Positions 1-63,450 of a DNA stretch of 64,000 nt are shown one piece after another. The position numbers and the translations under genes were made by a program. Below the pieces are notes generated by a model. The model was given only the letters and a program-made list of their open reading frames with translations, ran no database searches and was not told where the DNA came from. The stretch covers positions 23,312,001-23,376,000 of the forward strand of contig OX597837.1 of assembly GCA_951406725.2 (NCBI GenBank), in the 5' to 3' direction. The DNA comes from Octopus vulgaris (Eukaryota). Positions within the stretch are counted from its first letter, which is position 1, and every line of letters begins with the position of its first letter.

Positions 1-186
1 ATCGTCGTCATCATCATAATCATCATTATTATCAATATCATCATCACATCATCTTCGTCATTGTCATTGCCGTTGTCAGCATCCTTATCATCATAATTTT
101 TCTCATCATCATCATCATCATCGTCATCATCGTGGTCATCGTCATTGTTGTTATCGTCGTCGTCATCATCATCATCATCATCATCA
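1..186. repeat. Degenerate (ATC)n microsatellite
   Basis: ATC/GTC/ATT triplet runs. Confidence 0.9.
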
Positions 187-13649: not shown

Positions 13650-13852
13650 TTAACCATCTAGCATTTAAAATGTCTAAATCTGGCCCAAATATTCTACATG
13701 TTTTATGTCCAAACTGGTCAGATCTGGCCTTTTGCACCTGTCCTACAATACCATTCTAAATCTTAAAGTTACAAGATAATGCATGAATAATTCAACACAG
13801 TGTGAATAAATAAGCATTATATTTAATGAACTAATCTGAGTGCCAAAGAGCT
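13650..13852 (+). mobile_element. piggyBac-like MITE, diverged
   Basis: Similar to 34733-34952; starts TTAACC. Confidence 0.6.
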
Positions 13853-14432
13853 AAGCAACAGGCTCAATCATGTTGAACAGCTGTTGTCACATGTAGGACA
13901 AGTTCAGCTATTAGCTGAGTCAATCATAAGGACTGTCTTGTGACGCTCACCTTTAACAAGTTAGGGCAGGTGACATACTCTGTCTGGTGGCTAAGGCAAA
14001 AATGTAAATTAGAATAATGAATATAAATAGCAACAGCAAAAATAACATAACCCCATTTCTTCAAGCACCACCAGCCAAATCTGTAGGGATAACAAAAACA
14101 ATATCTCTAGGCTCTACTGTGTTTAGATAGATGAGCAAAAACTTCATTTTCTAAGTGTACCAGCGTGTAGTACATTATTATCATATGATGGAGAAGAAAT
14201 AATTACTGATGAAAAATACAAGGAAAACGAGAGACAAAATCACTCATAGATAAATCTTAGCATTATGCAATGAAAACATGTGAGGAGGAGGAATTTCTTT
14301 GAAGCAATAATCAAATCTTTCCTCTTGGAAATAAAGAAGAAATGGCAGAGAACAAAGATGAACTAAGACTCACTATACTTTGAAAATCAAACAGAGTTAA
14401 TACACAAAATTAAGAAGACTGTCATATATATG

Positions 14433-14798: not shown

Positions 14799-15102
14799 TT
14801 ACGGAGATGTACTTGCAGAGCAAGTGACTTCATCTGAGATTGTGTGCTAGAACGAAAATAATTGCAACGTAGAGGGTGTTTATAAGCCATTTAAGAAACA
14901 CACAAAATCTGTTAGACTTACTTCAACATTTAAATTTAATTTGTCAAAATATTTTCGGCACTTTGAGACTGCGACCTGTTCACTGATAAAACTCTGTGCT
15001 GCTCAGAAAATATTTTGACAAATTAAATTTAAATGTTGAAGTGAGTCTAACAGATTTTGTATGTTTCTTAAATGGCTTATAAACACCTTCCACACTGCAA
15101 TT

Positions 15103-15106
<4 letters not shown>
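14799..15106. mobile_element. Fold-back element with G3:C8 hammerhead (copy 1)
   Basis: Inverted arms; minus-strand HHR at 14940-14990 with decayed stem II; (TA)n flanks; same family as 34422 and 62497. Confidence 0.8.
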
Positions 15107-15147: not shown

Positions 15148-16213
15148 AGGTTGAGTAAAAAGTAAACAATGTTTTGAACCATGAAGAATTTATACTGGAT
15201 TTTTGCAGTTTTGAATTTTTTTATTTTAATATTTTTTTAACCTGTGTGATAATACAAACATATACTTGCCCAAATGCATCAATAAATTAATATTGATATT
15301 TTTCTCACTGTTGTTACAATCATTTGAAATGGAACTGTCAAAGCGCAATGTTCGAGCAATTTTACATTTCAACTTCAAAAAAGGACGTAAAGCAGCTGAA
15401 ACTACATGCAATATCAACGAAACATTTGGTGAGGAAATGACCAGTGGTCAGCTTGAAAATGGTTTCTACAATTTCGAAGTGGAGACCTGAGTGTTAAAGA
15501 CTGTGAGCATAGTGGATGCCCATTGGTCATTGATGATGGTAAATTAAAGACCATCATTGAGAAAGATCCTTGCAAAATCATTTGAGACCTGGCAAAAGAG
15601 CTTCAAGTTAGCCAGAAAACTGCACGCAACCGGAAATCCAAAAAAGCTTTACAGATGGGTACCACATGATTTGAAGGAAAATCAGAAAATGCAGATATGA
15701 AATTTGCCTTTCACTTCCACTATAACCTCTTAAAACCCAGAAAAACCATTACTGCAGAAACATATTGTCATGAAAATGCCAAAACAAAAAACTGCTACTC
15801 TTCCATCCCAGACTAGTCAAGAAAAGAGGGCAAATCATTCTTCGTGACAATGCTCAACCACACATTTCACTAATGACACTCCAGAAGTTGAGGGAACTTG
15901 GCTACGGAGTTCTTCCCAAACCCAACTCATTCCCCAGACCTTACTGCAACCGACTACCACTTTTTCAAGCACCTTGATGCTTTCCTGAAAGAGAGGAGTT
16001 TAAAAATCAAGCCAATACTGAAAGTGCATTCAAAGAGTTCATCAGCTTCAGAATTCCAGGTTTTTATGTTACCAGAATAAACAAACTTGTAACTTGTTAG
16101 CAAAAATGTATTGATTCTAATGGTATTTACTTTGATGAATAAAATTTCCACATTGTTGAAATATATTGTGATTTCATGTTACAAAAACGTTGTTTACTTT
16201 TTACTTAGCCTGA
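15146..16213 (+). mobile_element. Mariner transposon, internally deleted, pseudogenized (Hsmar1/cecropia-like)
   Basis: TIRs TCAGGTTGAGTAAAAAGTAAACAA / TTGTTTACTTTTTACTTAGCCTGA with TA TSD; peptides FKKGRKAAET, WVPHDL, DNAQPH, SPDLTATDYHFFKHLD from ATG 15329, with frameshifts. Confidence 0.95.
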
Positions 16214-34057: not shown

Positions 34058-34366
34058 TTCGTTTTTGGATTTGGTTTTCAAGATTCTTTATGTGAGTTCG
34101 TGTGTTGAAGCATATTCTGTTGTGTCTGGGGAGAGTAATTTTTTTTTGTACCTTGTAATTTAACACACTCACCTGTAAAATTTCTACTTATTCCTTATTT
34201 TCATTTTCCTAAAATTTTCGTTGCATCTTGCAACCTTGCATCTTGCAACCTTGCAACACAACAAAACTTTTAGGAAAATAAAAATAAGGAATAAGTGGAA
34301 ATTTTACAGGTGAGTGTGTTAAATTATAAAGGCACAAAAAGAAACTGACTGTGTACAGACACAACA

Positions 34367-34370: not shown

Positions 34371-34424
<54 letters not shown>

Positions 34425-34559
34425 AGGTGTACTTGCATAGTGAGTGACTTGATCTGAGATCATGTGCTGGAATGAAAACAATTGCAGCATGGAAGGTGTT
34501 TATAAGCCATTTAAGAAACAGACAAAAACCGTTAGATTTACTTCAACATTTAAATTTAA

Positions 34560-34610
34560 TTTGTCAAAATATTTTCGTCGCTTTGAGACTGCAACCTGTT
34601 CACTGACAAA
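34560..34610 (-). ncRNA. Type I hammerhead, G3:C8 core variant
   Basis: TTTGTCA-GTGAACA-G-GTTGC..GCGAC-GAAA-ATAT-TT|TGACAAA. Confidence 0.7.
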
Positions 34611-34632
34611 ACAAAGAGATGCAGCATGAAGT

Positions 34633-34683
34633 TTTGTCAGTGAACAGGTCGCGGTCTCAAAGCGACGAAAATATTTTGACAAA
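34633..34683 (+). ncRNA. Type I hammerhead, G3:C8 core variant
   Basis: TTTGTCA-GTGAACA-G-GTCGC GGTCTCAAA GCGAC-GAAA-ATAT-TT|TGACAAA; 7-bp stem I, palindromic AATATT. Confidence 0.75.
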
Positions 34684-34732
34684 TTGAATTTGAATGTTGA
34701 AGTAAATCTAACGGTTTTTGTGTGTTTCTTAA

Positions 34733-34952
34733 CCCTTTAGTGTTCAGATTACTCTGTTAAATGTAATACTTTTTCACTCAAATTGTTTTGAATTAATCAT
34801 GCATTATCTTATAGCTTTGAGGTTTCAATGATGTAATTGTTTATTTTTAGAATGACATTGTAGGGTAAGTGTGAGAGGCTAGATATTGCCAGTTTGAATA
34901 TAAAACATGTAGAATATTTGGGCCGGATATGGCCGGTTTAAATACTAAAGGG
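34733..34952 (-). mobile_element. piggyBac-like MITE
   Basis: TTAA|CCCTTTAG...CTAAAGGG|TTAA; removing it restores the host arm. Confidence 0.9.
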
Positions 34953-35692
34953 TTAAATGGCTTATAAACACGTTCCACGCTGCAATTGTTTATATATATA
35001 TGTATATATCATCATCATCGCTTAACGTCTGTTTTCCATGCTAGCACGGGTTGATATATACAGTGTATCGCAAAAGTATCACTTGGGCTAGTGATGACAA
35101 ATCAAAGATTTAAATATTAATTTTGAGTCTAGGACATTTACCCTCCACCCTCCACCATGGACAATAGCAATTACTCCTGAGGACAACAGATGCTGATTTA
35201 CAACTTCTTAATTTATTGGAGGGGGGATAATTAACCAAGGCAAGGTAATTGTCCTAGGGGGTAGTTGTCCTCAGAGGGAATTGTCCTCATACAGTTAATT
35301 TTATACAAGTGCATTTTTTAAAAATCATCGCTACATCTGATCACACACATTGTTTATTTCAACAGGATAATTTTTAAGGTCATGAGCCAATATAGTTAAC
35401 TCAATCGGTCTATTGATCAATTAAGGAAAATTGAACGACCTAAAAAGATTAATGCTTCTTTCATCATCAGAGCCATTTCTTGTTATATTGTGTTTAAATC
35501 CATGGATTTACAATATAGAATTGTAATGAACCATAACGTTGGACTCTTCCACAGGATTACTTGAAGTTCTTCACTTAATCTAAGTAATATTGTTAGCCTG
35601 GTGTGCCAACAGAGAGCTTATGAAGTATTTTGCCCCGATATATAATCCCTTACTATTTGTTTTATATATGTGTGTATATATATATATATATG

Positions 35693-40589: not shown

Positions 40590-41120
40590 GTAATTAGTGT
40601 CACTCTGTCCTTCTGTGCCTTAAATCCAGGGACTCTGGCTTCATCCTTCATGATGTACATTCTGGAAGGCATCTTCTTTCAGAACAAACCAGTGTCGTCC
40701 TTACTGTAATCCTGTTCCGGCTTGTATCCTTTGTCCTCGATGAATTGCCTGAATGTCTCGAGGTATTTCTCAGCAGCTTCTTTGTTGGCTGATACTGTCT
40801 CTCCATACAGTGATACATACTTTATTTCAAACCGTTTCCGGAAATAGTCAAACCACTCCTTGCTGGCTTGAAAATCTTCAGGCTCCAGTGCTGTCAATGG
40901 TCTTAGTTGTGGTTCTTCAGTGCCTTCTGCACTGTCTCCTCTGTCGAACTGCTGGTATAATTTCAATGCTTTCTCATGAATGATGTTACTGTTCAAGGGA
41001 ATGTTTTCCTTCTTGCAGTCATTGATCCACAATGCCAAGGCAGATTCCATCCTGACAAACTGCTTATTTCTCACTATCATTATCTTTTTGGCACTTTTAC
41101 AGAAACTTACTGCTATGGTG
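40590..41120 (-). pseudogene. Tigger/pogo transposase middle (CENP-B HTH to start of DDE)
   Basis: TIAVSFCKSAKK...MESALALWI...FQASKEWF..F.KR...DDTGLF*KKMPSRMYIMKDEARVPGFKAQKDRVTL. Confidence 0.9.
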
Positions 41121-41198
41121 TGTGTGTGTGTGTAAACTTAACTGGTTTCATATTTGTTAATCTTCAAAAGTATGTTATGTGGAATTCTGTCACAAACT

Positions 41199-62083: not shown

Positions 62084-62118
<35 letters not shown>
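61850..62118 (+). mobile_element. Family C 3' part
   Basis: GGTGGCACGTAAAAAGCAC...(ATG)n. Confidence 0.9.
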
Positions 62119-62496
62119 ATTCATCCCAAATATTCTACCTGTTTTATGTTCAAACTGACCAGTTTCAGCCTCTCATTCCTACCCTACAAAGCCATTTAAA
62201 AAGAGAACAACCACATTATGAAAATCTTCAAATTTTCAAATTTTGGTACAGAGCAAGCAATTTTGAGAGGAGGGGAAGTCATTTATTACAGTGACCCATG
62301 ACCCCACCAACACTTCACTGTTTATTTATTTTATCGGCATGGAAAAGATGAAAGGCAAAGCTGACCTTAACAGAATTTGAACACAGAATGTAATGATGGA
62401 GAAAATGCTTCGTAGCATTCTGTCTGGCATGGTAATAGTCCTGCCATCTCACAGCTTTCTTGAAATTATGAGATAACGCATGATTATTTCAAAACA

Positions 62497-62828
62497 TTAC
62501 GGAGATGTACTTACATAGCAAGTGACCAGATCTGAGATCGAGTACTGAAACGAAAACAATTGCAGTGTGGAAGATGTTTGTAAGTCATTTAAGAAACACA
62601 CAAAAACCGTTCGATTCACTTCAACATTTAAATTTAATTTGTCAAAATATTTTCATCACTTTAAGACCGCGATCTGTTCACTGACAAAAATCCGTGGTCA
62701 GTGAACAGGTCGCGGTCTTAAAGCGACGAAAATATTTTGACAAATTAAACTTAAATGTTGAAGTGAATCGAACGGTTTTTGTGTACTTCTTAAATGGCTT
62801 ACAAACACCTTCCACGCTGCAATTGTTT
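62497..62828. mobile_element. Fold-back with G3:C8 hammerheads on both strands (copy 3), nested in a piggyBac-like MITE (62120-62890)
   Basis: Minus HHR 62638-62688 (stem II ATCGC/GTGAT); plus HHR 62697-62741. Confidence 0.85.
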
Positions 62829-63450
62829 CAAAACAATATGAATAAATAAGTATTGCCTTTGACAGAGTAAACTGAATGCTAAGCGGTTAATCAACAATGG
62901 GTTAACTAATAGGGAAGCAAAGGGAGTGATTGCTCCATCTGAAGCACATTTTGAAAAATTGGTGCCTTTTCAACATTTTTTAAAACTCTTTAGATCACCT
63001 GTGAGATAAAATTTAAATTCCTCTTTTTCTCTTTTTGTTAATTGCATGGCCTTGGAAGAACTGGGTCATTAATTTATTTGACCAATCACCCATGTTTTAG
63101 AACTGTCAGCTCAATTATCTGTGATGTGTTGGTGGCTGCTAACATCTGAAGAACCAAAACAAACCCTGATATCATAACCTCTCAAAGCCAGACAATCCTA
63201 TCGAGTTTCATCTTTTTCACGTCACACCTATATCTGGAGTTGTAAACTTATTTCATGTCACTCCAATATCAATAGCTGTAAGTTTTGAACATAATAAAAT
63301 TCTTACTGAAATATGACATTACAGTGAGAAAATTTTCCATGACAAAATGCAGTAAATGGCTTGCCTACAGGTTTGAACGTTCCTCAAACATATTTGAACT
63401 GGTCATAAAGCTACAATCACATATATTGTAACTAATGAAATATTTTGTGT

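What the first reader, a model, noticed from the sequence alone, without database searches (positions are those of the whole stretch)
34422..34991. G3:C8 family: fold-backs with a self-cleaving motif on both strands (3 copies)
Seen: copies at 14799, 34422 and 62497 share one end (GGAGATGTACTT...) but fold back at different points near the ribozyme. Copies 2 and 3 have a complete HHR on each strand, with a 7-bp stem I in three of the four, an extra G between A9 and stem II, and a UUU cleavage triplet. Stem II varies while staying paired (GTCGC/GCGAC, GTTGC/GCGAC, ATCGC/GTGAT), though CpG decay explains part of this. Inference: a transcript from either strand could form a long dsRNA hairpin or be cut, so the family could affect host introns in either orientation.
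Basis: partly seen in the sequence, partly recalled or inferred. Interest (0 to 1): 0.72.

Follow-up and report, generated by a model that had tools for sequence, protein, structure and literature searches.

The report
Back-to-back Penelope leaders, swapped hammerhead
These are short, back-to-back scraps of the front end of a common jumping gene in an octopus-like genome; each carries a hammerhead RNA motif with two core letters swapped, but the back-to-back layout is likely a by-product of insertion and is predicted to block cutting rather than allow it on both strands.

Summary
The three copies and their hammerhead motifs are real. They are the ~205-nt leader (hammerhead, 5' UTR, first ~30 codons) of a Penelope-like retrotransposon with an RT + GIY-YIG ORF: 29 of 30 loci found with the ORF end carry the unit downstream. 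Extra nucleotide at 9/10.1, tiny palindromic stem III, inverted 5' copies and opposite-strand hammerhead pairs are all described for these elements. 'Cut on either strand' is not supported: each transcript meets the antisense arm first, the hammerhead fold costs 51-68 kcal/mol, no arm of 255 starts at the cut site, and dispersed copies decay neutrally (3 of 39 intact on both strands). Two things go beyond the papers I found. (1) G3:C8 is fixed in this family, while a sister family has C3:G8 at the homologous place. (2) The 'fold-backs' look like two separate cDNAs: one long and one short arm from two fixed 3' ends, sometimes from different subfamilies. Arm starts pile up 60 nt before the cut site, with an untemplated G in 18 of 19, as if a capped transcript start were copied. 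Cleavage and RNA ends are untested.

The parts
34420..34611 (-). copy 2, long arm: leader from -45 to +146 relative to the cut site, with the tail
34560..34610 (-). minimal type I hammerhead motif, G3:C8; predicted cut between 34567 and 34566
34420..34510 (-). first ~30 codons of the parent ORF (ATG at 34510-34508)
   Evidence: homology to L149/L150
34612..34616 (+). 5-nt junction filler; the G at 34616 is the candidate cap-derived base
34617..34732 (+). copy 2, short arm, first part (-60 to +55)
34633..34683 (+). minimal type I hammerhead motif, G3:C8; predicted cut 34676/34677
34733..34952 (.). nested 220-bp non-autonomous DNA element, TTAA duplication, 12-bp terminal inverted repeats (11 of 12 match); later insertion
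34953..34991 (+). copy 2, short arm, second part (+52 to +90)
14799..15002 (-). copy 1, long arm (-56 to +146); hammerhead damaged in stems I and II
15006..15106 (+). copy 1, short arm (-10 to +90); lacks the 5' half of the hammerhead
62497..62696 (-). copy 3, long arm (-52 to +146) with hammerhead motif 62688-62638
62697..62828 (+). copy 3, short arm (-41 to +90); hammerhead with 4-bp stem I
62487..62496 (+). left copy of the 10-bp target-site duplication of copy 3 (right copy 62826-62835)

Best explanation
The three copies are head-to-head pairs of the ~205-nt leader of a Penelope-like retrotransposon, likely written by its reverse transcriptase as two separate cDNAs from the two ends of one target cut, and their G3:C8 hammerhead motif is inherited cargo that is predicted to be blocked by the antisense arm. 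Shown: the parent is a ~4.3-kb repeat unit with the hammerhead 56 nt before the ATG of an RT + GIY-YIG ORF; arms end at two fixed sites (about +88 and +146); most pairs have one arm of each kind; 10-14-nt duplications flank the whole pair. Inferred: the enzyme binds its RNA near the ORF start, cuts AT-rich DNA, starts at one site from each DNA end and copies towards the RNA 5' end. On a transcript from the element's own internal promoter it runs off after 150-205 nt at a capped start 60 nt before the cut site, adding the extra G; on a tandem read-through transcript it can copy the whole ORF. The two cDNA ends are then joined. The ribozyme, if active, works in the parent's tandem RNA as a dimer, not in these copies.
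For: ORF linkage 29 of 30 (one is the query's own locus). 1025-codon frame with YVDD, CxxxCxxC linker and GIY-YIG, Pfam PF01541 E 1.8e-5; 92 homologues, two labelled reverse-transcriptase domain. Hammerhead then ATG at both ends of one unit, 4261 nt apart. 3' ends: 74 arms at +83..92 and 143 at +140..146 of 255 (+146 is also the end of the reference, flanks checked); contig depth falls about 100-fold at the second site in 4 of 4 runs. 41 of 52 clean pairs are long+short. In 10 of 33 mappable long+short pairs, window copy 2 among them, the short arm reaches at least 8 nt further 5' than the long arm, so neither is a copy of the other; in L122, L126 and L051 the arms belong to different subfamilies. 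52 of 55 arms chosen without regard to their 5' end start at or after -64; -60 is the commonest start (19 arms), 18 preceded by G, 15 of 16 outside palindromic joints against 13 of 77 elsewhere, p 6e-9; G is absent at -61 in 95 read-through arms. Folding penalty 51-68 kcal/mol against 1.9 for the leader alone. A sister family shows the same two ends at homologous codons.
Against: No RNA end was seen: all laid runs were contigs. Arms of a pair usually share subfamily marks (358 of 393 sites; 9% discordant against 27% shuffled), which snap-back synthesis also predicts; several joints are near-palindromic. The -60 site also reads as a 3' splice acceptor, so a spliced leader is possible. Samples are the best 40 hits per search, not random copies; two of the 19 arms (L159, L161) may be one event. 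The 5' wall could not be tested in the sister family (empty). Pfam gave no RT hit; RT motifs were read by eye.
Confidence: 0.8

Rival explanations
1. Same parent element, but the inverted arm is made by snap-back: one cDNA folds on itself and primes its own copy.
For: Arms mostly share subfamily marks and some rare variants (12 shared against 1.0 shuffled); joints with short palindromes (L122, L126, L109, L100). Snap-back is described for R2 insertions (PMC11371274, passages).
Against: Cannot give pairs where the short arm reaches further 5' and the long arm has the tail (10 of 33), nor arms of two subfamilies (L122, L126, L051), nor a fixed end of the second arm at +88. It may still make a minority of copies.
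Confidence: 0.12
2. One reading: a functional bidirectional element that cuts or edits host transcripts in either orientation.
For: Copies 2 and 3 keep a full core on both strands; long hairpin predicted; one copy elsewhere lies about 400 nt from a calponin-homology exon; leader-matching contigs are abundant in runs guessed to be RNA.
Against: Folding penalty; needs a dimer partner; only 3 of 39 insertions intact on both strands, 26 on neither; neutral decay; copy 2 is interrupted by another element; no host gene seen in the window.
Confidence: 0.04
3. The short unit is an independent non-LTR retrozyme that spreads through a ribozyme-cut circular RNA.
For: A 5-unit head-to-tail array on C27 (L002/L005/L014) and short tandem copies (L008, L159).
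Against: Units are not circularly permuted and do not start at the cut site (0 of 255 at 0, one each at +1 and +2); array units are joined through (TA)n; the unit is colinear with the parent's leader and carries the same subfamily marks.
Confidence: 0.04

Closest known systems
Minimal type I hammerheads of metazoan Penelope-like elements (Cervera and de la Pena 2014, PMC4209133; parts 1-2 of 4 read)
   Same: In the pLTR; extra nucleotide between 9 and 10.1; G10.1-C11.1; palindromic mini stem III; mostly solitary copies; pairs on opposite strands 100-700 bp apart; low activity, as dimers.
   Different: G3:C8 here; that paper and Perreault 2011 (PMC3088659, passages) report U3-A8 as the natural swap. 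UUU triplet. Pairs abut directly.
PAc, Poseidon of Anolis (Frangieh et al. 2024, PMC11167929; parts 1-2 of 4 read)
   Same: Hammerhead at the ORF start; two RT start sites inside the first codons that define the tail; both target strands cut and extended; uncleaved RNA is the template; AT-rich targets.
   Different: PAc has C3:G8 (the G3:C8 double mutant only partly rescues cleavage); ORF starts in stem II there, 56 nt past the cut here; tail about 58 nt here; CX3CxxC linker marks Neptune/Nematis, not Poseidon. The parts read do not describe capped-leader copies.
EN+ PLE insertions with an inverted 5'-truncated copy and tail (Craig et al. 2021, PMC8557442, passages; D. virilis Penelope, PMC2377424, passages)
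   Same: Inverted 5' copy next to the element, tail at one end, (TA)n preference, internal promoter in the pLTR.
   Different: Here most insertions are only the leader; the long+short rule and two-subfamily pairs are counted.
Animal non-LTR retrozymes (bioRxiv 10.64898/2026.07.22.740005; part 1 of 5 and passages)
   Same: Non-coding, type I hammerhead, derived from PLE pLTRs.
   Different: Retrozymes are head-to-tail tandems; these are head-to-head pairs or monomers bounded by the RNA start and the RT start sites.

Membership tests
EN+ Penelope-like element (parent) | single ORF with RT and C-terminal GIY-YIG bearing CCHH | tested here: met
   RT and CCHH motifs read by eye
EN+ Penelope-like element (parent) | pLTR in tandem or inverted orientation, with tail | tested here: met
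   tandem L178, L179; inverted 1.5-1.8 kb arms L094, L095; two ends
EN+ Penelope-like element (parent) | target-site duplication around the insertion | tested here: met
   19 of 71 listed pairs have a 10-14-nt non-microsatellite duplication; most others lie in (TA)n or are spurious pairings in complex loci
Neptune/Nematis clades | CX2-5CxxC linker between RT and EN | tested here: met
   criterion from PMC8557442
Neptune clade proper | placement in an RT tree with reference elements | not tested
   no named references at hand
Minimal type I hammerhead of PLEs | core UGA..A / GAAA / UH with stems I and II | tested here: met
   160 of 195 arms have the identical core
Minimal type I hammerhead of PLEs | canonical C3:G8 | tested here: not met
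   G3:C8 in 185 of 195 arms, C3:G8 in 0; the pair is kept but swapped
Minimal type I hammerhead of PLEs | palindromic short stem III allowing a dimer | tested here: met
   6-nt palindrome; swapped dimer -25.4 against -24.8 kcal/mol for two monomers, so only marginal
Minimal type I hammerhead of PLEs | self-cleavage | not testable with these tools
   needs an assay
Non-LTR retrozyme | head-to-tail tandem units each with a hammerhead | tested here: not met
   window copies are head-to-head; one array elsewhere
Non-LTR retrozyme | circular RNA | not testable with these tools
   contigs only

The most novel reading that the evidence does not exclude
The inverted pLTR and tail of Penelope-like elements come from two enzymes priming on both ends of one cut, on two RNA molecules, from two fixed sites; the thousands of short copies are cDNAs of the capped 5' leader and so record the element's transcription start; and this family runs an active ribozyme on a natural G3:C8 core that standard hammerhead searches miss.
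Probability: 0.45. Interest if true: 0.6.

Novelty: new variant of a known kind. Interest (0 to 1): 0.4.

Why it matters
How Penelope-like elements make inverted ends and tails, and what their hammerheads do, are open questions. These short copies give countable footprints (long+short rule, two-subfamily pairs, extra G, no ends at the cut site) that favour two-ended priming on uncleaved RNA and can be tested in the existing in vitro system. A natural G3:C8 core in a high-copy family would widen the hammerhead consensus and means descriptor counts miss whole families. The window copies themselves are old, decaying insertions with no sign of a host role.

Tried and rejected
Rfam: no hammerhead among the 150 of 228 window matches shown or 20 local matches; miRNA hits are hairpin artefacts. 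Expression: no RNA holder listed on record; four runs guessed as RNA were contigs only, so ends, strand, editing and small RNAs could not be read. Genome searches with the tail alone and with the sister family's leader returned no candidates, which shows nothing. Selection at subfamily level: variable positions 1 of 35 in core and stems against 10 of 64 elsewhere, p 0.09, six of them in loop II and not independent: suggestive only. A third family (L250, one decayed copy) shows C3..G8 and a similar stem II but no clear stem I; its row was mis-cut and ignored. An apparent open frame across the whole unit was dropped once the real ORF start was found. Natural G3:C8 in print: not found in searches (only engineered mutants: PMC3884650, PMC11167929); octopus PLE hammerheads not found in one search; cap G in PLEs not found in one search. 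Lunse et al. (PMC5785218) and Przybilski and Hammann (PMC1986816) were not held, and no supplements were opened; the large alignments in those and in PMC4209133 may already contain G3:C8.

Full report
Observation. The three copies lie at 14799-15106, 34420-34991 and 62497-62828. A two-strand descriptor scan found three family motifs with 7-bp stem I, 5-bp stem II, G3:C8, an extra G and UUU, and one unrelated hit in 64 kb. The fourth motif (copy 3, +) has a 4-bp stem I, and copy 1 is damaged. Copy 2 contains a 220-bp TTAA-flanked element at 34733-34952. Positions below are relative to the predicted cut site (0 = first base after it).

Parent element. The genome is 2.8 Gb; the unit had 2073 first-look candidates, 40 scored. 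Walking upstream led through a microsatellite-rich UTR to a GIY-YIG ORF end. Of 30 loci fetched with that ORF end, 29 carry the unit on the same strand, most about 1 kb past the stop. L095 holds a 1025-codon frame with YVDD, a CX3CxxC linker and GIY-YIG. The best named homologue is labelled Octopus, so the host is likely an octopus. In L149 and L150 the unit runs on into the ORF: the ATG is at +56, so the unit is hammerhead, UTR and about 30 codons. L179 has hammerhead plus ATG twice, 4261 nt apart. This is the pLTR-ORF-pLTR layout of EN+ Penelope-like elements, Neptune/Nematis type (PMC8557442, passages).

What is already known. Cervera and de la Pena (PMC4209133) describe minimal hammerheads in pLTRs with a nucleotide between 9 and 10.1, a palindromic stem III, dimer dependence, low activity, and dual motifs on opposite strands. 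Craig et al. describe the inverted 5' copy and tail. Frangieh et al. (PMC11167929) show two internal RT starts, extension of both target strands, uncleaved RNA as template, and partial rescue by the C3G/G8C double mutant.

Ends. Among 255 distinct arms from all searches, 74 end at +83..92 and 143 at +140..146. In the set picked with +8..+88 only (41 places, 39 insertions, 55 arms), 52 arms start at or after -64 and none at 0; over all 255, none starts at 0 and two at +1 or +2. The commonest start is -60 (19 arms), 18 preceded by G; outside palindromic joints 15 of 16 against 13 of 77 at other starts (p 6e-9). None of 95 arms that read through -61 has G there. An extra G marks capped full-length L1 insertions (PMC11702581, passage), and the site resembles an initiator (consensus recalled); D. 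virilis Penelope has an internal initiator promoter (PMC2377424). I infer a capped start. The same bases also resemble a splice acceptor (by eye), but no shared exon sequence precedes the G.

Pairs. 26 of the 39 insertions have an adjacent inverted arm (counted). Of 52 clean head-to-head pairs, 41 are one long and one short arm, and 10-14-nt duplications flank the whole pair where the target is not (TA)n (10 bp at copy 3). In 10 of 33 long+short pairs (9 more dropped because both arms ran past the reference), copy 2 included, the short arm reaches further 5' than the long one, and three pairs mix subfamilies. These need two cDNA syntheses. Against this, arms usually match in subfamily (358 of 393 sites), as one source or snap-back would also give.

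Would the copies cut? On both strands the antisense arm is transcribed first. The hammerhead fold costs 62-68 kcal/mol in whole copies 2 and 3 and 51-63 in nascent copy 2 RNA, against 1.9 for the leader alone and 2.3-6.8 for single window arms. Of 39 insertions 3 keep an intact motif on both strands, 10 on one, 26 on neither. Rare changes hit core and stems as often as the rest of the leader (p 0.46), and stem II breaks (56) about match pair-keeping changes (61, of which 57 are C-to-T). Window arms are 2-8% off the majority against a median of 1.5% in the sampled arms. UUU and an extra G are weak choices by recalled mutant data, not checked here.

Is G3:C8 real covariation? It is present in 185 of 195 arms, with no C3:G8, kept in older subfamilies at 82-87% protein identity, and no core variant reaches 5% in contigs of 4 runs labelled as four organisms. 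A sister family (55% identical over 713 residues) has a hammerhead motif 101 nt before its ATG with C3:G8 in 31 of 31 parsed arms (41 found), compensatory differences in stems I and II, and the same two 3' ends at homologous codons. So both partners changed together at a homologous site. That sister motif has C at position 9, so it is not canonical either. Loop II varies between subfamilies while core and stems do not, but only at p 0.09. I found G3:C8 in print only as an engineered mutant; two key papers were not held.

Host context. No host domain in 130 of 252 frames, only transposase scraps. One copy elsewhere lies antisense near a calponin-homology exon, so intronic copies likely exist, and a read-through hairpin could be edited or diced; nothing here tests that.

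Earlier notes of this scan on other windows report the same swapped core and two fixed start points; they are not independent evidence. Verdict: a real feature, a variant of a known kind. The parent assignment is near certain; two-cDNA joining and the capped leader are inferred; activity is untested.

Noticed in passing
window 34733-34952; relatives at 13650-13860, 62117-62232, 62467-62496, 62827-62896: A TTAA-flanked miniature element (piggyBac-like by recall) is nested in copy 2, while copy 3 sits inside a copy of the same family: mutual nesting, so the two were active over the same period.
   Followed up: partly
L186:2560-2790, L259: Sister Penelope-like family with an intact 1200-codon ORF in tandem layout; its hammerhead has C3:G8 but C instead of A at position 9 in all 31 parsed arms, and N17 varies between C and U.
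   Followed up: partly
L002/L005/L014 (C27): Five leaders head-to-tail, joined through (TA)n: the one layout seen in which two sense hammerheads could dimerise.
   Followed up: no
L150 leader, L018 leader: The predicted fold pairs the first bases of the leader with the +146 end, so the second RT start lies at the end of a helix that closes the whole unit.
   Followed up: no
L159, L161, L165, L156: Chimeric insertions in which a piece of the ORF 5' end is followed directly by a new leader, several starting with the extra G.
   Followed up: no
L003:2107-2349: Calponin-homology exon (plastin-like by recall) about 400 nt from an antisense copy of the unit.
   Followed up: partly
window 40682-41137, 15230-15487: Tc5-type and Mos1-type transposase DNA-binding remnants.
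   Followed up: no
window 34166-34316: A long inverted repeat of another repeat family just left of copy 2.
   Followed up: no
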